The notes: generated by a model not told the origin, from the sequence alone. Numbered from the stretch's first letter, positions 17,868 through 62,718 are shown. The stretch: 64,000 bases of DNA from a virus (IMGVR_UViG_3300036833_000232:1-64000); one strand, 5' to 3'. Numbers and translations: made by a program.

Positions 17868-18305
17868 TCAGCCCGTGTGCTCCGGCCCCACTGGACGAAC
17901 CCCACGGCGCGCTGGCACCTGGTGCGCGGCGTCGTATTCGGCAACGATCTCGGCGGGGATACGACCCCGGTCCGCCACCAGATGGCCCGCTTTCCGCGCC
18001 CACTCCCGGATCGCCTTGTTCGCGTGGCCTGATGTGCTCGCGTGAACCCTGACATGGGCGGTTACCGGCTCCGTGTCCCGACTGTTCGCTGCGGCTCGTG
18101 TTCCCATGCCGCGTTTGATTCGGCCCCCGATACGGCGGGCGTGTTCCACGAAACCGGCGAGCGTATCCCGGAGTTGATCCGCGTTCTCCGCGCAGAGATC
18201 AATGGTGTAGTTCACGCCGTCCAACGAGAAGTCCACCGTCTCTACCCCCTCGGTGCTGACACCATCGAGGTCATCCACTACCTCAACAACCACCTTTTGA
18301 GCCAC
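17868..18305 (-). CDS. lsr2: Lsr2 family nucleoid-associated protein
   Basis: AQKVVVEVVDDLDG...YTIDL and IREWARKAG...RGRIP; GGAGG RBS. Confidence 0.93.
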   Translation of the reverse strand: MAQKVVVEVVDDLDGVSTEGVETVDFSLDGVNYTIDLCAENADQLRDTLAGFVEHARRIGGRIKRGMGTRAAANSRDTEPVTAHVRVHASTSGHANKAIREWARKAGHLVADRGRIPAEIVAEYDAAHQVPARRGVRPVGPEHTG

Positions 18306-18647
18306 AACAACCTCCGCCGTTGCCGTTTGTTTATTGGTGGCGGAGAGTATAGAGACGTGCGACACGCCGGGGGCATAAACCTCGCTTGACGTCACCTCAA
18401 TGGGCGAACATGTAGCCTGCCGCACCTACACCATCCTCGACTGGAGTAAAGGCGGCCAATGACTACCCGGAACACGCTGTACACCCTGGACCAGGTGTGC
18501 GCGGTGCACCACGTCACACCCCCCACTGCTACGGGGATCGCCCGGCACCGCGCCGAACAACGCTCCTGGTGGCGGCAGGTGTTTACCCGCCGCCACCCGA
18601 CGGTGCGTCTTTAGCTAGAACCCTCCAAAAGGGGGTTCTTTGGGCTG

Positions 18648-49636: not shown

Positions 49637-49882
49637 CTACCAGGCGGTGATCACACCGGAAACCCTGTGTCCGCATAGACCCACCGGCCATCCGGGTGGT
49701 AATAGACCAGCGGCCACACCGGGTCTCCCACGCTGGCGATGGTGAGGTTCCCGGCCAGGCCGGCGTCGATTTCGGCGTCCTGCCGCGACGGACAAGCCCG
49801 CACGGTGCCGTCCGGGCTGGCCACCCCCCCACACCAGCAACTCCTGGTCGAGGCTGCTGAAGTGGATCGCCGGCCGGGCCAT
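49637..49882 (-). CDS. hypothetical protein
   Basis: TGATG coupling to WhiB gene. Confidence 0.55.
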   Translation of the reverse strand: MARPAIHFSSLDQELLVWGGGQPGRHRAGLSVAAGRRNRRRPGREPHHRQRGRPGVAAGLLPPGWPVGLCGHRVSGVITAW

Positions 49883-50241
49883 CACGCCGCCTCGCGGTGT
49901 TGGTTCCGTAGACGGCTGCGTTGCCCGCCAGTCATGCCGGCGGCGACACCCGGCCGGGGCATCTCCGGCATGGTGGTTTCCCACCGCAGCACATCACCCT
50001 GACACTGCCGCCGCACCGGGCAGCCCGCGCACACCTGTTGGGCTTCGGCGTTGCGCCTCCGCGACCCGGAGAAGAACAGTTCGTGGCCGGCGGTGCGGCA
50101 GGCGGCGGCGTCGAACCAGGCGGGCGGGTCGCCGCCGGTTTCTGGCCACAGCGTCAACGCCAACGCCAGCCAGCCCTCACCGGCGTCGCCGATGGCCGCG
50201 ATCAGCGGATCGGTTTCTGGGTGTCCCACGGGGGTTCTCAC
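49882..50241 (-). CDS. WhiB family Fe-S transcription factor
   Basis: AACR...ELFF...CAGCPVRRQC...GVAAGMTGGQR. Confidence 0.85.
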   Translation of the reverse strand: MRTPVGHPETDPLIAAIGDAGEGWLALALTLWPETGGDPPAWFDAAACRTAGHELFFSGSRRRNAEAQQVCAGCPVRRQCQGDVLRWETTMPEMPRPGVAAGMTGGQRSRLRNQHREAA

Positions 50242-50510
50242 CCGTCCTGGCAGGGATGCCGTGGATCGAAGATGACGGTGTTGAAGTCGGGGCCGTCGTT
50301 GTTGGCGGGGCTGGTGGGGTCGTAGCCCCACTGGTCCCCGTTCGGGCAGGCCCCGCACACCCAGCCCGGGTTACAGGCGGGGTTGCTGTTTGCGGCCGGG
50401 GGTGTGGGGACACCCTGCTCGGGGGTGGTGGTGATCGGCGCACACGCGGCACCGGTGAGTACCCCGGCGAGCACCGTGGCGACAGCCAGGACAGTTCGCG
50501 CAGAGGTCAT
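50238..50510 (-). CDS. small putative lipoprotein
   Basis: signal peptide with LTGAAC lipobox-like end. Confidence 0.6.
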   Translation of the reverse strand: MTSARTVLAVATVLAGVLTGAACAPITTTPEQGVPTPPAANSNPACNPGWVCGACPNGDQWGYDPTSPANNDGPDFNTVIFDPRHPCQDG

Positions 50511-50557
50511 GGTGTTCTCCCTTTCTGTGGTGGTGGTTTGGGTGGCTAGTTCTGGGG

Positions 50558-50929
50558 TTACACGTTCCAGACTTTGTTCGGGTCGACGTGGTCAAGCAGC
50601 CGAGTCATGTAGTCAGGGATTGCGGCTCGCTGTTCGTCGGGCATCGGCGACACCAGCAATTCGGCGGCACCGATCTGTGCCGCCCGCTCGGCGACCCATG
50701 CCAACAATGCCGTCTCGTCGTTGAATTGTGGGCATTGTGGGATCTCCCGCAGTCGCGGGTGTTGCTCGAACAACCACTGGGCACATGCGGCGTCCACGCC
50801 GAGACTGTGCGACGGGCCGGGAACGGGCGCGCCGCTGATGAATTCCAGGATCTCCTGGTAGTCGTTGAAGGATGAGGGCAGGTGGTGGGTGACGGCGAGA
50901 ACAACGTCAAGCCGGAAGGTGCGCGTCAT
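50558..50929 (-). CDS. hypothetical protein
   Basis: GAAAGGA RBS; MTRTFRLDVVLAVT. Confidence 0.7.
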   Translation of the reverse strand: MTRTFRLDVVLAVTHHLPSSFNDYQEILEFISGAPVPGPSHSLGVDAACAQWLFEQHPRLREIPQCPQFNDETALLAWVAERAAQIGAAELLVSPMPDEQRAAIPDYMTRLLDHVDPNKVWNV

Positions 50930-51045
50930 CGGAACTTGGTCCTTTCGTTTCAGGGGGCTGCCAGTCAATTGTTGGGGACGCGCTGCGTCCCGGTCGGGGT
51001 TGCCACCTGTCATTGCTGGTTTCCTCGCGCCTTCTTTGTCGGTAG

Positions 51046-51528
51046 CTACCACCGGTGGCGGTGCCGGAAGCCGGTGCAGTATGGGCACAGCAGGTCGTCA
51101 TCGTCGGTGTTGCGCCAGCCGTGTCCGGCCAGCCGGGAGAACTCGGCGATGATCCGGTCGGCGGGGATGGCGGCCCGCTCCCCGCAGTTCGGGGTGTGGC
51201 AGACGAGATGCAGGACCTTCAGGTCCTGTCCGTGGCTGTGCAGGTAGCAGGTGTTGATGCGGCCGTCGGTGGTGCCGCCCCAGCCGTGCTCGCGCATCAC
51301 TCGTACGTCGCGCTGGGCGGTGAACCGGGCGATAGACGCGATCGGTGCCGGGGATGGTTGGTGGTCGAGTGATTCGCAGTGCACGGTGATGGTGTCGAGG
51401 TAGCGCTGCCCGGGCCGGTCCCGGCTGTCCCTGTTTGGCTGGTCGCGATTACGCCGCCAGCGGCCGTGCCATTCTCCGGCCCCGATCCCCAGCGCGAGGG
51501 TGGCCAGGTATCCCCACACGTCGCTCAT
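51046..51528 (-). CDS. membrane-anchored Zn-binding hypothetical protein
   Basis: N-terminal TM; two HGW...C repeats. Confidence 0.6.
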   Translation of the reverse strand: MSDVWGYLATLALGIGAGEWHGRWRRNRDQPNRDSRDRPGQRYLDTITVHCESLDHQPSPAPIASIARFTAQRDVRVMREHGWGGTTDGRINTCYLHSHGQDLKVLHLVCHTPNCGERAAIPADRIIAEFSRLAGHGWRNTDDDDLLCPYCTGFRHRHRW

Positions 51529-51642
51529 ACCCTCTCCGTTCACCTTGATCGCAGTTCTTGCTCTATCCAGGGGGCGCGGGCGAATAGCGCACCGGGTGAG
51601 GCCACTGTGCGATTATCGCCAATTTTTGCTTTCCTTTCTGGG

Positions 51643-52254
51643 TTAGTATCCGACGTATTTCCTGCCCGCGTGCACGGCGATCACCCCGGGCACGTTGTCG
51701 AGTGAGCCGTAGGTGGCCTCGGCGTAGCGTGTCCCGGCGATGATGTTGGACACCGGGTCGTCGATGTTGGTGTCGTAGCCCGGGCGCAGGGCGTAGGTGG
51801 CGAACACGCTGGGGATGGTCTGCATCAAGCCCTGGGAGGGGTGGCCGGCGGCGGCGTTGGAGTCCCATGTGTTGATCGTGTTCGGGTTCCCGCCGGATTC
51901 GCCTTGGATGATGATGATCAGGTCGGCGGTGTCGCTTGGCGTGAACGCGGGGTGGCCGTGGGTGGCCATGATCTGTTCGGCCTGGGCGATCCACTGCTGG
52001 ACTTGAGCGGATGTTGCTGGCGTGCCGGTGGCCTGCCCGCTCCCGCCGACGGCCGCGGCGATCCCCACCGTGCCGCCGATGGCGGTGACAGTGACGCCGA
52101 TCAGTAGGGCGAGCAGTCCCCGCTTCCGGCTGTCCCCGGGGTGGGGAGCGCGGGGAGTGCAGTGGGGACCGTGGTGGGGAGTGGGTGCCCGGCCGGGTCG
52201 GGGCCGGGTGGGGAGTTGCGGGGATGTGCGGATGACGAGTGGGGACCGGGCCAT
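51643..52254 (-). CDS. membrane-anchored lytic transglycosylase (SLT)
   Basis: ESGGNPNTINTWDSNA, GLMQ, DPVSNIIAGTRY; TM segment; AGGAG RBS. Confidence 0.9.
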   Translation of the reverse strand: MARSPLVIRTSPQLPTRPRPGRAPTPHHGPHCTPRAPHPGDSRKRGLLALLIGVTVTAIGGTVGIAAAVGGSGQATGTPATSAQVQQWIAQAEQIMATHGHPAFTPSDTADLIIIIQGESGGNPNTINTWDSNAAAGHPSQGLMQTIPSVFATYALRPGYDTNIDDPVSNIIAGTRYAEATYGSLDNVPGVIAVHAGRKYVGY

Positions 52255-53072
52255 GGTGGGTGCTCCTAGCTGGCGGGGACTGTGGTGGGGAGTGAGATCG
52301 GCGCGTGGGCGCGTTGATGGACCTGCGGGTAGGGTCCGCCAACGCTGCACCGGGTGGGGCGTGTGGGTTGCGGTGCGTGAGTGGTGCCTGCGCCGAAGCT
52401 GCTGCGGTGCGGGATGGCACCACAGTTGACGTTGATCACTGGAGGCGATAGCTGGCCTGGGCGCGGTGGCTGCCCCTCTCCCCCGTGTTGACCCGGTGGA
52501 GGGGTGGTTGGCCTGCGATGACCACGCTTGATCGTCACGTGTGGTGACGGTGATCCCGGTGGTGTTAGACTCGGTCTCGCGGGCATGCGCGCATGCGCGC
52601 GTAGGGTGTCCTCGGGGCGGGAGAGCGTGGGAAGTTACCATGGGAAGTTCCCACCCGCCGGTCACCTTCCGTGACGAGTGGATGTGGGTCCTGCGGGCCG
52701 CTTGAACTACCGTGCACTCTCTCGCCGAAACCGGGCGAATCGGACACGGTGCACCCAGGCTGGGGTGTCGCGGCGAACCGCCCGCAGGGTCACGCATTGC
52801 ACCGCCGAGTAAGGGTGTCCTAACCTGACCGAGAGTAGGGTTGGCGGCGTGAGCGCTCCGCCGATATGTCCGGCGGACCAGCTGGGCACCACTGCGGATC
52901 CCCACCCACTCCCCACCGCTGGCGGTCAGGGCCGGACCAGGCGATCCCCGCCCACACTCCCCGGAGACACCCACTCCCCACCTGCACTCCCCACCATTCC
53001 CCGGCCTGCATTCTCCACCCGGGGACCGCGCGAGCGGGGGGAGGGGAGTGGCGGATTCCCCACCCGCTCCCC
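52143..53072. repeat. clt-like clusters of 8-bp CACTCCCC repeats
   Basis: exact copies on + at 52907, 52955, 52972, 52985 and on - at 52152, 52176, 52287, 53043, plus 1-2 mismatch variants. Confidence 0.7.
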
Positions 53073-53075
53073 GCC

Positions 53076-55151
53076 TCATGCCGCCCCCACCCGGGTGGGG
53101 ATCGACTCCCACTTCCCGTGCCCGCAGTCGCGGACCTCCTCATTGCCGGCCGCACGACGCAGCGCCTGTGACACCACGGACAGCTCGAATCCCAGGGCGG
53201 CGGCCAGTTCCCCGGTGGTGGACCGTCCCCGCCGGGCCAGCTCCGTCACGATCGCGGCCTTCTTCGTGACCGAGGCGTCTTCGGGCTCTTCGACCGCGAT
53301 CGTCAGCGGCAGCGGCACCAGTTCCGCGACCCGATCGGTCAAATCCGCCCACGGGTTGGCCGCCCGGGCCAGTACAGCCGCAGGGGTGCCGCTGGGCAGG
53401 CCGAGGCGTCGGGTCTGCTTGTAGGTCTCCAACGCGATCCGGGCGTCGGCCATCGACTGCTCCGGGCTGCGGTGCGCCTCGGCGATGTAGGCACCCAGCG
53501 CCAGCTCACCGACCTCGTCATCACCCCACGGCTCGTTCGGCAGCGCCCGCGCCCACGGCGACATGTCCTGCGTGAAATCGGTGCGCAGCATCGCGGCCCG
53601 GTTGCTGCCAGCCGCCCGCAAATACGCCCAGCCGCCGTCGGTGGGCAACGTGTAGGGTGCCATCGTCGGACCGTTGATCAGATTGTGGGCGTATTTCGAG
53701 CTGGTGTAGAAACACACCACATTGCGGGACGTCAGAATATCTCGCAGGGTGGAATTACCGGCGAAATCCAGATTCAAATCCAGGCCCTGGGTGGCACACC
53801 ACACCGCCACGCCTTTTTTCCGGCCGAGTCGGACGACAATTTCCAGTTCTTTCGCGAAGTCTTGGTCGGCCTTCAACAGTAGGTGCAGTTCGTCAATGAT
53901 CCACAGGAGGCCTTTGCGGGCGGGGGAGGGGTTGACTCCGCGCACGTCCTCCGGCAGTGCGGCGTTCTCGATACCGCGGCCGGTCATGTACTCCTTGACC
54001 GCTGCCAGCTGCGCCCAGGCCCCCGTCAGGCCGTAGTCGGAGGCGGTCATGTAGTTGCTCAGGATCGGGGAGGAGTCGTTGTCGATGGAGCCGTCGTTGT
54101 AGAGCACCTTCCACCGGCGGCTGTGCAGCGCGGACATGCCCAGGTTCTCCAGGAACACGGACTTGCCGGAGCCGGGGTCGCCGGTCACCAACCCGTTGAT
54201 GACGGTGGCGACGTGGTCGGTCAGTTGCACCGACCCCCAGCCATCGCCATCGGCGTAGGGGCCGGACGCGACGTAGCCGTTGTCGTAGCGGGGCCCGGTG
54301 TAGGCCACCCCGTCTTTGAGGGGGTTGGTGGTCAGAAACGAGATCAGTCCGCGGGAGTAGTCGCCGTCGGGGTGCAGTTCGATCACGATGTCGGCGGGGG
54401 CCAGGCCCATCACGCCAGCGATTTTGGGACGGGCGGGGACCAGGTCATCGAAGGTGTTGTGGTCAGGGTCGAGAACGATCTCGAACGCCCACCCAGTCGC
54501 GAGTTCCCGCTCACCCGCGAGTATCGAGTGGGCGAATTTTTTGCCCTTCGCGGACAAGAATGTTTCCCAGCGTTCCACAATCCGGTCGGCGCCAGTGATC
54601 GGCGCGGCCAGCACCTCGTCCTCAGTGTCTTCATCCTCGTCCGCGGCGGGCAGTTGCGACGGAACCGGGCCGGCGACGATGCGGTGGTCCTGCCACCAGC
54701 GGCCAGCGAGGGTGACGGTGGTGCCGGCGAGCGCGCCGGTAAGCAGCCAGCCGGGGGTGGTACCGGTGTCGAGGACCGCAGCGAGGGTGGACCAGAGGGT
54801 GGCGGTGGTGCCGGCGAGCCAGAACCGCAGACTCCACCGGTGGGTGAACACCGTGCGCAATGCCCCGTAGCGGGTGAGGTACATCGCGCCGGTGGCCAGG
54901 GCGGCGGTGGAGGCACCGACCGCGAGGGGCTGGTGCGCGGCCATTTCGATCAGGTGAGCGCATTCGCCGTAGGCCCAGGTGCCCGCGCCGGCGAGGTGGG
55001 GGGCGACCATGGCGCGCTGCCAGCGGGACACGCGGAACGCTCGGTCGGCGGCCGCGTACTGCGCGAGCGCGTCTTCGTGGGAGACCGGCACGACTTCAGC
55101 ACCAACAGGCGTGGTGGTTTCCTGTGGTGGTGCGATGGCTTCGGTGCCCAC
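53076..55151 (-). CDS. traB: TraB-like FtsK/SpoIIIE DNA translocase
   Basis: N-terminal TM helices, Walker A GDPGSGKS, Walker B WIIDELH, RLGRKKGV...ATQ, C-terminal wHTH. Confidence 0.82.
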   Translation of the reverse strand: MGTEAIAPPQETTTPVGAEVVPVSHEDALAQYAAADRAFRVSRWQRAMVAPHLAGAGTWAYGECAHLIEMAAHQPLAVGASTAALATGAMYLTRYGALRTVFTHRWSLRFWLAGTTATLWSTLAAVLDTGTTPGWLLTGALAGTTVTLAGRWWQDHRIVAGPVPSQLPAADEDEDTEDEVLAAPITGADRIVERWETFLSAKGKKFAHSILAGERELATGWAFEIVLDPDHNTFDDLVPARPKIAGVMGLAPADIVIELHPDGDYSRGLISFLTTNPLKDGVAYTGPRYDNGYVASGPYADGDGWGSVQLTDHVATVINGLVTGDPGSGKSVFLENLGMSALHSRRWKVLYNDGSIDNDSSPILSNYMTASDYGLTGAWAQLAAVKEYMTGRGIENAALPEDVRGVNPSPARKGLLWIIDELHLLLKADQDFAKELEIVVRLGRKKGVAVWCATQGLDLNLDFAGNSTLRDILTSRNVVCFYTSSKYAHNLINGPTMAPYTLPTDGGWAYLRAAGSNRAAMLRTDFTQDMSPWARALPNEPWGDDEVGELALGAYIAEAHRSPEQSMADARIALETYKQTRRLGLPSGTPAAVLARAANPWADLTDRVAELVPLPLTIAVEEPEDASVTKKAAIVTELARRGRSTTGELAAALGFELSVVSQALRRAAGNEEVRDCGHGKWESIPTRVGAA

Positions 55152-55240
55152 GATGGTCCTCCCTCCGTGACTGTGGCAATGCGGGTGCGGTGCCTGGCCC
55201 CCCGTTCAGCGTCTGCTGGCGCGGGAGGCCAGGCGGTGGG

Positions 55241-55555
55241 TCAGCCCAGGTAGTTGTTGTTGGTGCCCGCGCCGGAGGCCTTGACGTGCTCCTGCGCGGC
55301 CTGGTGCGCCTCGTAGTGGGCTTTCATCTGCTCGGCCAGGCCCTTGGCCGCGGAGAGGTGGTTGAGTATTTCCGTGGTGGTAGAGACCTGGGACTGGTCG
55401 ATGTTCGCGCCGGCGGTCCCGACCGAAGCGATGTTCGCCTGGACGCGGGACTCGGCAGCGGCGAACACCTCGATCAGGCCGCTGGTGAACGTGATCCCGC
55501 GCTCGGGGTTGGTGACCTCGCCGCTGGCCAGGGTGAGGCTGCCGGAATCGGCCAT
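55241..55555 (-). CDS. small helical protein upstream of traB
   Basis: GAAGGAG RBS; 104 aa. Confidence 0.65.
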   Translation of the reverse strand: MADSGSLTLASGEVTNPERGITFTSGLIEVFAAAESRVQANIASVGTAGANIDQSQVSTTTEILNHLSAAKGLAEQMKAHYEAHQAAQEHVKASGAGTNNNYLG

Positions 55556-57215: not shown

Positions 57216-57484
57216 CGGGTTTCCTTCCGTTTCGTGCCGGACAACAGGGCGTCGGCCTCGGCGCGCAGCGTCTTGGCCAGGTCCCGGATGGCGTGGTTGA
57301 GGCGCGAACTGTCGCCGCGGTGGCGGCGAACCGCGCCGCGGAAGTAGTCGTAGGCGGCACCCAGTTCGTCCAGGGCGGTTTTCGCGCCGCGGGTTTCGGT
57401 GACAAGTTGTTTACGGCGGTTGACCGCCCGGGCCGCGATCTGCCGGGCCGGGGCTTTACCGCGGGAGCGGGGTTGTCCGGCCAT
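57212..57484 (-). CDS. hypothetical protein
   Basis: coupled on both sides. Confidence 0.65.
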   Translation of the reverse strand: MAGQPRSRGKAPARQIAARAVNRRKQLVTETRGAKTALDELGAAYDYFRGAVRRHRGDSSRLNHAIRDLAKTLRAEADALLSGTKRKETR

Positions 57485-58716
57485 CAGCCGACCCCCTTCG
57501 CCTGGCCACGGTCCTGCTGGCGCGGGTCGCCGAAGTCGCGGAAGTAGCGGCTGATCGCGTTCTTCGCGGTGCCGGTGTAGCTGCCGGACATGGCCACGTC
57601 GACCGCCCGGTACGACAGGGGGTTGTCGGGGTTGGCCTGGTAGCTGGCGAGCCAGCGGGCGACCGCTTCGGCGGACTTCTCGCCGTACTTACGGACCAGA
57701 GTCAAATCCAGCACGGGCCGGGGAGTGCCCTCCAGGTTGATTTCCGCTGTCTGCTCCGAGGCGCGCGCCGCCGCGGCGGCCGGAGCGGCCGCGGGTGGGG
57801 TGGCCAGCGGGGCGGGGGCCGGCTTCGGTTTCGCCGTCGGGGCCACCACTTTGGCCTGTTTGGTGGCCACCGCGTACGGCGAGGGCTGCCGGATCGACGC
57901 CAGATCCTGGGCGTGCTGGATGACGCCGATGTGGTTGACCAGCCGGATCATCAGCGTGTCGTCGTCGGCGACACCCGCTTTGATCACCGCGCGTTCCAGG
58001 CGGGACTGCCGGAACGGGGTCCGTTTGCTGGCGGTGGCCAGCCGGGCGGCCTGCATCAGCGCCCGGTCCCGGGTGCGGGCGGCCGCGTCGCGGGCATCGT
58101 CGGCCAGGCCGATCCGCGACAGTGCCCGCTCGCGCATCTCGTCCGCGACCCGCGCCCAGGTGGACTTTTTCTTGCTGCGGCCGTGCCGGTTGTGGATTTC
58201 GATACCGAGGGCCTGGTGCAACATGACCATCGCGAACACCGGCCCAGCCAGGACCCGGGCGAGGCCTTCGACCGGGCCGGCCTCGACCAGGGCGGCGTAG
58301 GCGGCGAACCCGCACAGCGCCCACGCGATCATCCGGGCCGTGCCGGGGGAGGCCGGCTCACCTTCCGGGGTCTTGCGCCGGACGTTGGTGCGCATCCCGT
58401 AGGCGCACGCCAGCAGTCCGACCTCGATCAGCGCGAACATGCCGACCCGTTCGATGCCGACGATGTGCAGCTTGTCCCCGAAAAACCGGAACGAGGTGTC
58501 GGCCGACAGGGCGATCCCGAGTGCCCCGGAGAAGTAGTAGCCGAGGTTGGCGCGGGAGGCGCGTTGTTCGTCGGTGACCGGGGCGGTGTGCCGCCCGGCC
58601 CGGGTCCTTTTCGCGGCGAGCACCATCAGCAGGACCGCCACCGCTGCTGCGATGCTCAGCAGTAGAACACGGTGGGCGACGACCCAGCCGAGCACGAGCG
58701 TCGTCACGCTGGTCAT
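57484..58716 (-). CDS. SpdB/DUF2637-like multi-TM spread protein
   Basis: about 5 TM segments, RVLAGPVFA, Pro/Ala linker, C-terminal HTH-like region; AGGAGG RBS. Confidence 0.65.
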   Translation of the reverse strand: MTSVTTLVLGWVVAHRVLLLSIAAAVAVLLMVLAAKRTRAGRHTAPVTDEQRASRANLGYYFSGALGIALSADTSFRFFGDKLHIVGIERVGMFALIEVGLLACAYGMRTNVRRKTPEGEPASPGTARMIAWALCGFAAYAALVEAGPVEGLARVLAGPVFAMVMLHQALGIEIHNRHGRSKKKSTWARVADEMRERALSRIGLADDARDAAARTRDRALMQAARLATASKRTPFRQSRLERAVIKAGVADDDTLMIRLVNHIGVIQHAQDLASIRQPSPYAVATKQAKVVAPTAKPKPAPAPLATPPAAAPAAAAARASEQTAEINLEGTPRPVLDLTLVRKYGEKSAEAVARWLASYQANPDNPLSYRAVDVAMSGSYTGTAKNAISRYFRDFGDPRQQDRGQAKGVG

Positions 58717-61792: not shown

Positions 61793-61869
61793 TTTGGTAT
61801 GGAGCTTGTTGACTTGGTACGTACCATAGACCGGGATGGCAGAGTACGCAACCTTTGGTACGGTCCAAA
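61793..61869. promoter_or_regulatory. divergent promoter region with GntR-type operators
   Basis: TGGTACGTACCA palindrome 61815-61826; TTTGGTACGGTCCAAA 61854-61869; TTTGGTA half-site at 61793. Confidence 0.6.
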
Positions 61870-61896
61870 CCACAGCAGTCAAGCGAAGGGAGACAC

Positions 61897-62718
61897 GTGG
61901 CGGCCACTGCGCGATGGCAGGTCGTATATGACCACCTGCTCACCGGCATTGATCAGGGCGAATACCCGCCTGATCACCAACTGCCGACCGAACGAGAACT
62001 CATGCGCCAATTCGGCTACGCACGCGACACCGTTCGACGCGCCTACGCCCAGTTGGAGCAGAAAGGCCTCGTCGTCGTTGGTGGCCCCACCGGTCGACGG
62101 GTACGCCAACCGGTCGAGTTGTACTTCGACGCGTCCAAATTCGAACGGATCTACACCGACGACCCCGACCTCAACCGCGATCAGTGGAGCCAGGACGTCG
62201 CCGCGCAGGGCTGGGAGCACGACCAGACCCCAGTGGTGAACCACCTGCCCGCCACGCGGTGCGTTGCCCGCTGGCTGGACGTTGACCTGAAAACGCCGCT
62301 CATCCGACGCCGACGGCTCCGGCGCGTCCGACAGACACCAGCACAACCATGGAAGACGGTCGTTATCGCCGACTCCTGGTTTCCGCTGGACATTGCCCAC
62401 CGCCAGGTCGACGGGTTGGCACCACTGCTGATGCAGCAGAACATCACGATGCGTGGCGGCATCATCCGCTCGCTGGGGATCCGCCAGGAGATGTTCGTGG
62501 ACGAGATCCGGGCCAGGATGCCGCACGACGACGAGACCGAACTGCTGGACTTGCTGCCGTACACCCCGGTTCTGGAGTTCGCGCGAGTGGGAATCGACGA
62601 TGCCGGCCGACGCATCCGGGTGATCGTCAACGTGTTGTCTTCCGACTCCCAGTACCTGAAATACATCCTTGACGTGCCCCAACCGCAGGAACCCTCACCC
62701 GCCACGGAGGACATGTGA
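61897..62718 (+). CDS. GntR/HutC-type regulator with UTRA domain (KorSA/TraR-like)
   Basis: LPTERELMRQFGYARDTVRRAY; DSWFP, DEIRARMP; GAAGGGAG RBS. Confidence 0.9.
   Translation: MAATARWQVVYDHLLTGIDQGEYPPDHQLPTERELMRQFGYARDTVRRAYAQLEQKGLVVVGGPTGRRVRQPVELYFDASKFERIYTDDPDLNRDQWSQDVAAQGWEHDQTPVVNHLPATRCVARWLDVDLKTPLIRRRRLRRVRQTPAQPWKTVVIADSWFPLDIAHRQVDGLAPLLMQQNITMRGGIIRSLGIRQEMFVDEIRARMPHDDETELLDLLPYTPVLEFARVGIDDAGRRIRVIVNVLSSDSQYLKYILDVPQPQEPSPATEDM

What the first reader, a model, noticed from the sequence alone, without database searches (positions are those of the whole stretch)
52143..53072. Two oppositely oriented CACTCCCC octamer clusters directly downstream of traB (clt-like locus)
Seen: 8 exact copies plus variants (CATTCCCC, CGCTCCCC, GATTCCCC). 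The left cluster reads GGGGAGTG on + (52143-52294, partly inside the SLT 5' end) and the right cluster reads mostly CACTCCCC (52907-53072), flanking about 600 bp with no convincing gene. Known: TraB wHTH domains bind 8-bp repeats in clt loci next to traB. Inference: this is the transfer locus, and the inverted arrangement could load TraB in two directions.
Basis: partly seen in the sequence, partly recalled or inferred. Interest (0 to 1): 0.75.

Follow-up and report, generated by a model that had tools for sequence, protein, structure and literature searches.

The report
Two-armed docking-repeat locus beside phage TraB
A 98-kb soil actinomycete phage carries, right after its plasmid-type DNA pump gene (TraB), about twenty copies of one short DNA word in two mirror-image blocks around 600 non-coding bases. 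This is most likely where the DNA-transfer machinery grips the genome, but binding has not been shown.

Summary
Eight of the 15 exact CACTCCCC copies in the 98.7-kb record lie in 52152-53050. An unbiased scan ranks this locus as the strongest 8-mer cluster of the whole genome. The real unit is about 11 bp (cAC-TCCCC-RCc). Nine or ten copies sit on the minus strand at 52143-52294. Ten sit on the plus strand at 52899-53072, with three inverted stragglers. The blocks are 607 non-coding bp apart.

The gene upstream is a TraB-like protein: membrane helices, an FtsK-fold motor and a C-terminal winged helix. The record is a circular tailed-phage genome, not a plasmid.

A clt-type docking locus is the best reading (about 0.5) but is unproven. 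Two related phages each carry one dominant array that is also two-directional. There the word differs, and the array lies inside the linker codons of an Spd-like membrane protein with its own DNA-binding tail. Both that tail and the TraB winged helix change together with the word. The reader protein therefore remains open.

Loading TraB in two directions is speculation that the recurring two-directional layout makes worth testing. The scan has noted TraB/clt-like arrays in phages on other DNA before. I class this as a new variant of a known kind, of moderate interest.

The parts
53076..55151 (-). TraB-like DNA translocase, 691 aa. It has N-terminal membrane helices (about residues 25-156), an FtsK-fold P-loop motor (GDPGSGKS at 324-331) and a C-terminal winged helix (a1 624-639, a2 646-653, a3 657-669 LSVVSQALRRAAG, wing 673-683).
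   Evidence: Sub-threshold Pfam hits to FtsK_SpoIIIE, HerA_C and AAA_22. AF2 model. Foldseek top hits are FtsK motor structures 6t8o and 2ius, then TcpA and EccC, E about 1e-8, probability 1.00. 17 homologues at 42-57% identity.
52899..53107 (+). Right (traB-proximal) repeat block. Ten plus-strand copies of cAC-TCCCC-RCc lie at 52899-53072. Inverted copies lie at 53021, 53038/53043 and 53092-53107; the last of these is in the final 8 codons of traB.
52295..52898 (.). Non-coding spacer of about 0.6 kb between the two blocks. The alternating-GC palindrome GCATGCGCGCATGCGCGC at 52583-52600 sits at the centre of the whole locus. TGGGAAGTT occurs twice (52628, 52641) and AGGGTGTCCT twice (52603, 52812); neither word occurs anywhere else in the record.
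   Evidence: No codon periodicity. Only junk-like ORFs. No Rfam family. No consensus promoter or terminator. Repeats listed. RNA fold z is -3.4 on the minus strand and -1.1 on the plus strand.
52143..52294 (-). Left (SLT-proximal) repeat block. Nine minus-strand copies of the same word, phased at about 11 bp, with a weaker outlier at 52351-52366. Seven copies lie inside the N-terminal extension of the SLT reading frame.
   Evidence: Phasing R = 0.77 at an 11-bp period. The words fall in all three codon phases.
51643..52254 (-). Membrane-anchored lytic transglycosylase (SLT domain), 203 aa from ATG 52254, which has an AGGAG ribosome-binding site. Compared with its orthologue in the related phage it has about 43 extra N-terminal residues, and these are the ones that overlap the left block.
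   Evidence: Pfam SLT 7e-10. PHROG tape-measure/SLT domains. 52% identical to L009:10047-10520 over residues 72-203.
57484..58716 (-). Spd-like membrane protein, 410 aa: four membrane helices, a Pro/Ala linker and a C-terminal HTH-like tail (...TGTAKNAISRYFRDF...). It is the alternative candidate reader of the repeats.
   Evidence: Translation. 41% identical to L009:3231-4403. Its homologues in G003 and G757 carry those phages' repeat arrays in their linker codons.
61855..62718 (+). GntR/UTRA regulator transcribed divergently from the transfer operon (KorA/TraR/KorSA type). The palindrome TTGGTACGTACCA lies just upstream.
   Evidence: Pfam GntR 5e-15 and UTRA 7.5e-9. NCBIfam HutC/PhnF-type. 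Palindrome. KorSA is a GntR-family protein with homologues on all AICEs (PMC2440964).

Best explanation
The two repeat blocks form a clt-type, cis-acting docking locus for the TraB-type double-stranded DNA transfer apparatus encoded around it. The proposed mechanism is as follows. The winged helices at the C-terminus of TraB (recognition helix 657-669) bind the ~11-bp word GGYGGGGAGTG / CACTCCCCRCC. Copies spaced about 11-13 bp apart present several sites on one face of the helix, so that a hexameric ring can assemble on the phage DNA. Because the two blocks have opposite polarity, rings or nucleoprotein complexes would form in mirror orientation on either side of the 0.6-kb spacer. Shown here: the repeat architecture and its uniqueness in the replicon; the TraB-like nature of the neighbouring gene; the transfer-module context. 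Inferred: that TraB, rather than another protein, reads the word; that binding leads to transfer; that polarity matters.
For: The locus is the strongest word cluster in the whole 98.7-kb record and lies far beyond the simulations. It begins in the last 8 codons of a gene whose product has membrane helices, an FtsK-fold motor and a confident winged helix. It sits inside an operon with Spd-like membrane genes and an SLT, opposite a GntR/UTRA repressor gene. Published clt loci are clusters of 7-9 bp repeats, often with inverted repeats, next to or overlapping the 3' end of tra, and are bound by the TraB/TraA C-terminus (PMC4447253, PMC3583192, PMC5365140). The repeated unit is a DNA word and not a peptide, since copies fall in all three codon phases. 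Our TraB motor is 67% identical to that of phage G003 but the winged helix only 17%, and the two phages have different words. Replication genes lie elsewhere, at 65-75 kb. No ParA-type partition gene was seen among the proteins scanned.
Against: There are no binding or transfer data. In three relatives with similar TraB motors, traB is followed by only 80-140 bp with no array. In the two related phages the single dominant array lies in the linker codons of the Spd-like/HTH-tail gene, not at traB. That tail co-varies with the word just as the TraB winged helix does. The locus (930 bp, ~20 copies, 0.6-kb spacer) is much larger than characterised clt loci (50-175 bp, 3-9 copies). No array of this word was found next to a TraB gene in 401 Pseudonocardiaceae genomes.
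Confidence: 0.5

Rival explanations
1. The blocks are docking sites of the transfer module, but they are read by the C-terminal HTH tail of the Spd-like membrane protein (57484-58716) and not by TraB. That protein would tether the DNA at the membrane or septal channel for intramycelial spreading.
For: In the related phages G003 and G757 the one dominant array is written into the linker codons of exactly this gene. Their tails are nearly identical (STAWNILADLKRNY and STARNILADLKRSY) and their words share the core ACCGC. Our tail (GTAKNAISRYFRDF) and our word both differ. An earlier scan report (e1-3826237) reached the same reading on other DNA.
Against: In this phage the array is 4.4 kb away from that gene and abuts traB instead. 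The TraB winged helices of G003 and G757 are also partly alike (ERTVKRKLAEL and ETAVRNALAEL), so the co-variation does not discriminate between the two readers. From my own knowledge, SpdB2 of pSVH1 is described as binding DNA non-specifically.
Confidence: 0.2
2. The blocks are operator arrays for a transcription factor. They would control a promoter or a structured RNA in the spacer, regulating SLT and the downstream genes; they are not a transfer site.
For: The spacer is non-coding, sits directly before the SLT start, and holds local palindromes and direct repeats found nowhere else in the record. The minus-strand RNA folds better than shuffles, z = -3.4. Several HTH proteins are encoded nearby: GntR, a 287-aa HTH_23/MerR-like protein and WhiB.
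Against: About twenty sites spread over 930 bp is far more than operators usually need. The word is not palindromic, unlike the GntR-type palindrome at 61814. No consensus promoter or terminator and no Rfam family was found. The fold z-score rests on only 20 shuffles.
Confidence: 0.12
3. The blocks are iterons of a replication origin, a centromere, or a packaging or attachment site (pac/attP) of the phage.
For: Two repeat clusters flanking a central segment is also the layout of iteron origins and of some pac sites. RepAM of the Amycolatopsis AICE pMEA300 binds multiple identical 8-bp repeats (PMC2440964).
Against: Initiator-like, DnaC-like and DnaB genes lie 12-22 kb away at 65-75 kb. The terminase is 30 kb away and the tyrosine integrase 47 kb away. 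No ParA/ParB partition pair was found among the proteins scanned. The spacer is not AT-rich (GC 0.64-0.71).
Confidence: 0.1
4. The repeats have no sequence-specific function. They would be a by-product of slippage or amplification in a C-rich tract, or generic G-quadruplex-prone DNA.
For: Both blocks contain G4-type motifs on their G-rich strands. With one mismatch allowed, the octamer is not enriched window-wide.
Against: The copies are not tandem: spacings range from 9 to 59 bp with unrelated filler. The two blocks are strictly mirror-oriented (p 3.6e-4). G4 motifs are common in the record, at 23-58 loci. Two related phages independently keep a two-directional array of their own word.
Confidence: 0.08

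Closest known systems
clt loci of Streptomyces conjugative plasmids: pSVH1 (8-bp TraB recognition repeats), pWTY27 (TGACACC/CCCGCCC, bound by TraA), pJV1 (nine 9-bp repeats) and pIJ101
   Same: Clustered 7-9 bp words, partly with inverted repeats. They lie next to or overlap the 3' end of the gene for a membrane FtsK-like translocase with a C-terminal (winged) HTH. Each locus is unique to its element. A GntR-type repressor and Spd genes lie nearby (PMC4447253, PMC3583192).
   Different: This locus has about 20 copies against 3-9 there. It spans 930 bp against about 50-175 bp. It is split into two mirror blocks by 0.6 kb of non-coding DNA and overlaps the starts and ends of two genes. It sits in a 98-kb tailed-phage genome, and binding and cis-requirement are untested.
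FtsK KOPS (GGGNAGGG) and SpoIIIE SRS polar loading words
   Same: A G-rich 8-mer (GGGGAGTG matches 7 of 8 KOPS positions) presumably read by the winged helix of an FtsK-family pump. Read 5'-3' on the G-rich strand, both blocks point towards the spacer, as KOPS point towards dif. The KOPS facts are from my own knowledge.
   Different: The words are concentrated in one locus and not spread with a replicon-wide skew. Sites outside the locus show no polarity switch. Sequence likeness to the FtsK gamma domain was not detected. The direction of any loading is unknown.
Repeat arrays of the related phages G003 (GCAACCGCA) and G757 (CACCGCTGAG)
   Same: In each case it is the single dominant word cluster of a ~100-kb related phage. 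It lies inside the same transfer operon, as a forward block followed by an inverted block.
   Different: The word differs. The arrays are written into the linker codons of the Spd-like/HTH-tail gene, about 3 kb upstream of traB. There is no long spacer, and only 3-4 copies are inverted.
RepAM 8-bp repeat origin of pMEA300 (an Amycolatopsis AICE)
   Same: Multiple identical 8-bp repeats, on an integrative element of Pseudonocardiaceae, that are bound by an element-encoded protein (PMC2440964).
   Different: Those repeats lie inside the rep gene. Here the replication genes are 12 kb or more away and the neighbour is the translocase.

Membership tests
[quoted passage not shown] | Lies on an element that encodes a TraB-type translocase (membrane anchor, FtsK-like motor, C-terminal winged HTH) | tested here: met
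   Foldseek top hits are FtsK motor structures. The winged helix at 624-683 has pLDDT of about 85.
[quoted passage not shown] | Several copies of a short (7-9 bp) word clustered at one place and specific to it | tested here: met
   It is the top cluster of the record; 21 of the 58 sites scoring 10 bits or more lie in 1% of the genome.
[quoted passage not shown] | Specific binding by the cognate TraB C-terminal domain | not testable with these tools
   Needs EMSA, footprinting or ChIP. No protein-DNA prediction tool was on hand.
[quoted passage not shown] | Required in cis for transfer, and able to mobilise a non-transferable replicon | not testable with these tools
   This is a genetic test.
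[quoted passage not shown] | The word changes together with the TraB recognition helix among relatives | tested here: inconclusive
   Word and winged helix differ between G000, G003 and G757, but the Spd-tail helix co-varies equally. DNA for the homologues with a winged helix like ours (P0002-P0006) could not be fetched.
TraB (actinomycete conjugative dsDNA translocase) | Sequence-level membership of the FtsK_SpoIIIE family | tested here: inconclusive
   Pfam PF01580 scores 19.7 bits against a cut-off of 24. PDB sequence hits are only E 0.03-0.04. The fold match is clear.
TraB (actinomycete conjugative dsDNA translocase) | Module context: a divergent GntR-type repressor and Spd-like membrane proteins | tested here: met
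   PMC2440964 and PMC4447253.
KOPS/SRS-type polar guide words | Replicon-wide strand skew of the word that switches at a defined point | tested here: not met
   Sites outside the locus number 12 minus/6 plus on one side and 9 minus/10 plus on the other. Only 7 exact copies lie outside the locus.
Iteron origin / RepAM-type repeat origin | Repeats lie inside or directly beside the initiator gene | tested here: not met
   The initiator-like HTH, DnaC/IstB-like and DnaB genes are at 65.3-67.1 and 73.2-74.6 kb. The neighbours of the locus are traB and SLT.

The most novel reading that the evidence does not exclude
The two mirror-image blocks load two TraB rings in opposite orientation. The covalently closed ~98-kb phage genome would then be exported as a loop, spacer first, with both arms pumped at once. 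This would solve the topological problem of moving circular double-stranded DNA through a ring motor and would give a tailed phage a virion-free route between hyphae.
Probability: 0.15. Interest if true: 0.8.

Novelty: new variant of a known kind. Interest (0 to 1): 0.45.

Why it matters
How a TraB ring takes hold of, and then moves, a closed circular double-stranded DNA is still unresolved for Streptomyces-type conjugation. [quoted passage not shown] A natural locus with two strictly mirror-oriented blocks of one polar word next to traB is a ready-made substrate for testing directional loading in vitro. The same forward-then-inverted layout recurs in two related phages. The setting also matters: a complete, circular, 98-kb tailed-phage genome with an integrase. 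If the module works, this phage has a second, capsid-independent way to spread. The scan has seen TraB-with-array modules in phages on other DNA, so the kind is not new to the scan. I found no paper on it in the held library.

Tried and rejected
The contigs of the closest TraB homologues (P0002-P0006, whose winged helix resembles ours) could not be read. Viral-contig scans with P0004 and P0005 found nothing.
- The first viral-contig scan with our TraB alone found nothing.
- The 15-mer CACCCACTCCCCACC in IMG/VR gave only scattered single matches and one unrelated tandem array.
- The pattern CACTCCCC-N2-30-CACTCCCC in 401 Pseudonocardiaceae genomes matched at chance level. The eight local triple arrays I fetched have no TraB nearby. 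That tally includes six unpublished genomes (G287, G278, G340, G090, G041, G007); nothing specific is reported from them.
- TraB searched in 401 genomes of the order found only the known S. griseoalba hit.
- Plasmid and phage BLAST of the locus and of TraB gave only distant hits or none.
- A k-mer scan downstream of 13 TraB homologues found no comparable arrays.
- Rfam gave no match. The consensus promoter/terminator scan gave none.
- No convincing ORF lies in the spacer. The SLT frame stays open for 286 codons upstream, but that happens in 2% of shuffles and shows no codon bias.
- The CACCGACC 'cluster' at 60.6 kb is dispersed inside coding sequence and was dropped.
- Weak likeness between our spacer and the non-coding stretches beside the arrays of G003 and G757 is not significant (z 2.8-3.8 against simple shuffles).
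- Sequencing runs: no RNA holder is listed. Two soil-metagenome contigs hold the stretch identically, may be the source of this DNA, and show no inversion or deletion. Contigs cannot show rare variants.
- G4 motifs are not specific to the locus.
- Complex prediction was not used, because it cannot model protein-DNA contacts.

Full report
**What is there**

The window is the first 64 kb of a 98,661-bp IMG/VR virus record. Exact CACTCCCC occurs ten times in the window and fifteen times in the record. Eight of these lie between 52152 and 53050.

I scanned every 8-mer of the record for local clustering without prior choice. The five best-clustered words all come from this locus. GGTGGGGA has 10 of 19 copies within 1 kb (p 1.6e-14) and CACTCCCC has 8 of 15 (p 6e-12). 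Thirty third-order Markov simulations of the record never did better than 1.4e-9.

Aligning all TCCCC cores gives a unit of about 11 bp, c-A/G-c-TCCCC-A/G-C-c. The 15-mer CACCCACTCCCCACC occurs three times exactly.

The left block (52143-52294) has nine copies, all on the minus strand, plus a weaker outlier at 52351. They are phased at about 11 bp (R = 0.77). The right block (52899-53072) has ten copies on the plus strand. Three inverted copies lie at its traB-proximal end, and the last of them sits in the final eight codons of traB. The orientation split between the two blocks is significant (Fisher p 3.6e-4). The innermost cores are 607 bp apart.

**Coding status**

A codon-position GC plot shows clear coding signal for the SLT gene up to about 52140 and for traB from 53076 upwards. 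There is none in between. ORFs in the spacer translate to junk-like sequences.

The SLT gene most likely starts at ATG 52254, which follows an AGGAG site. Its orthologue in a related phage lacks the first ~43 residues. Those residues are exactly the part overlapped by the left block. The words there fall in all three codon phases, so it is the DNA word that is repeated and not a peptide.

The SLT frame happens to stay open up to GTG 53112. That occurs in 2% of dinucleotide shuffles, and the stretch has no codon bias (GC3 0.68), so I treat it as non-coding.

**Surroundings**

The 691-aa protein upstream (53076-55151, minus strand) gets only sub-threshold sequence hits to FtsK/HerA/EccC families. 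An AlphaFold2 model built on 17 homologues shows four long N-terminal hydrophobic helices, a P-loop motor and a confident C-terminal winged helix. Foldseek ranks FtsK motor structures first, followed by the TcpA coupling protein and EccC.

The operon also holds a 410-aa membrane protein with a Pro/Ala linker and an HTH-like tail, several small membrane proteins, and the membrane-anchored SLT. A GntR/UTRA regulator is transcribed divergently. This is the make-up of TraB-type transfer modules of actinomycete plasmids and AICEs (PMC4447253, PMC2440964).

The rest of the record is a siphophage:
- terminase, portal and tape-measure genes at 22-46 kb, and a tyrosine integrase at 4.5 kb;
- an initiator-like HTH protein, a DnaC-like loader and DnaB at 65-75 kb.

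Two soil-metagenome contigs of 98.3 and 98.4 kb hold the stretch identically, but at other offsets and on the other strand. The related record G003 is circularly permuted relative to ours. So this is one circular or permuted replicon, and the transfer module is part of the phage genome. It is not a neighbouring island.

**Relatives**

Three loci with closely related TraB motors could be read: G003 (a 102.9-kb phage), and contigs of Saccharopolyspora soli and S. griseoalba. In all three, traB is followed by only 80-140 bp and no array. In G003 the SLT orthologue follows directly. Relative to G003, then, our phage has about 0.8 kb of extra DNA between traB and SLT.

G003 is related to our phage along its structural genes, at 63-77% nucleotide identity. 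Its own top word cluster is GCAACCGCA, with about 18 forward copies followed by 3 inverted ones. It lies about 3 kb upstream of traB.

A third related phage, G757 (portal 73% identical), has (C)ACCGCTGA(G). About ten forward copies are followed by three inverted ones, at the homologous place.

In both relatives the array is written into the linker codons of the Spd-like membrane protein, which ends in an HTH tail. That gene is fused in G757 and split by a GTGA overlap in G003.

Each of the three phages therefore has one dominant array inside the transfer operon. Each array has a forward block followed by an inverted block, but the word and the position differ.

**Who reads the word**

Our TraB motor is 67% identical to that of G003, but the winged helix is only 17% identical. 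This fits a change of DNA specificity.

The Spd-tail helices tell the same story. G003 and G757 are nearly identical there, and their words share the core ACCGC. Our tail and our word both differ. The TraB winged helices of G003 and G757 are also partly alike. Co-variation therefore cannot separate the two candidate readers.

Homologues P0002-P0006 have winged helices like ours and would decide the matter.

Position favours TraB in our phage, since the locus overlaps the end of traB as in pWTY27 and pSVH1 (PMC3583192). Position favours the Spd tail in the two relatives.

**Other readings**

- An origin, centromere, pac or att site is unlikely. The replication, terminase and integrase genes are 12-47 kb away, and no partition ATPase was seen among the proteins scanned. 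I keep in mind that RepAM of pMEA300 binds 8-bp repeats (PMC2440964).
- An operator array for a promoter or RNA in the spacer cannot be excluded. The minus-strand RNA folds somewhat better than shuffles (z -3.4 on 20 shuffles, against -1.1 for the plus strand). No Rfam family or consensus promoter was found.
- A function-free amplification does not fit the non-tandem spacing, the strict mirror orientation, or the parallel arrays in relatives.

**Likeness to KOPS**

GGGGAGTG matches 7 of 8 positions of the FtsK guide word GGGNAGGG (from my own knowledge). Read 5'-3' on the G-rich strand, both blocks point into the spacer. Sites outside the locus show no replicon-wide skew, so this is not a KOPS-like guidance system. 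Whether the word is polar for loading is unknown.

**Verdict**

The best reading is a clt-type docking locus of the TraB/Spd transfer apparatus. TraB is the more likely reader (0.5) and the Spd tail the main rival (0.2). Compared with characterised clt loci it is larger, bipartite and mirror-symmetric, and it sits in a tailed phage. I class it as a new variant of a known kind. The two-directional loading idea is attractive and testable, but it is not supported beyond the recurring layout.

Noticed in passing
window 50500-55500; whole record G000: Two soil-metagenome contigs (98,271 and 98,432 bp) hold this stretch identically but at different offsets and strands, and the related record G003 is circularly permuted relative to ours. 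The phage genome, transfer module included, is therefore one circular or permuted replicon of about 98.3 kb.
   Followed up: partly
L009:4370-4800 (G003) and G757:C1:64120-64510: Two related ~100-kb phages carry their single dominant repeat array (GCAACCGCA; CACCGCTGAG; shared core ACCGC) inside the Ala/Thr/Pro-rich linker codons of an Spd-like membrane protein with a C-terminal HTH tail. The gene is fused in G757 (500 aa) and split by a GTGA start/stop overlap in G003.
   Followed up: partly
window 52583-52600: An alternating-GC palindrome (GCATGCGCGCATGCGCGC) sits at the exact centre of the bipartite locus. Similar alternating CG/CA tracts lie in the non-coding DNA next to the arrays of G003 and G757, but the alignments are not significant.
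   Followed up: partly
window 51643-53112 (-): The SLT reading frame stays open for 286 codons upstream of its likely ATG, up to a GTG that overlaps the end of traB. This happens in 2% of shuffles, and the stretch has no codon bias and contains rare A/T-ending codons, including TTA.
   Followed up: yes
window 52295-52906 (-): Read as RNA in the direction of the transfer operon, the spacer folds better than shuffles (z -3.4 on 20 shuffles). The opposite strand does not (z -1.1). No Rfam family matches.
   Followed up: partly
window 61814-61826: The palindrome TTGGTACGTACCA, with a second half-site-like TTGGTAC at 61855, lies just before the GntR/UTRA gene. It is a likely autoregulatory operator of the KorA/TraR-like repressor.
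   Followed up: no
L011:10039-10656 (S. griseoalba contig): A second, partial copy of the TraB motor (205 aa, 44% identical to ours) lies directly downstream of the full-length traB. This suggests a duplicated or decaying module in that bacterial genome.
   Followed up: no
window 17868-18425 (-) and 49882-50358 (-): The phage encodes an Lsr2-type nucleoid protein and a WhiB-type regulator. The WhiB gene lies in the same leftward block as the transfer genes.
   Followed up: no
G001:C17:93250-93450: The S. griseoalba contig has a 90-bp tandem repeat, each unit holding the inverted pair CTAGGGCC...GGCCCTAG, next to an assembly gap upstream of its transfer module.
   Followed up: no
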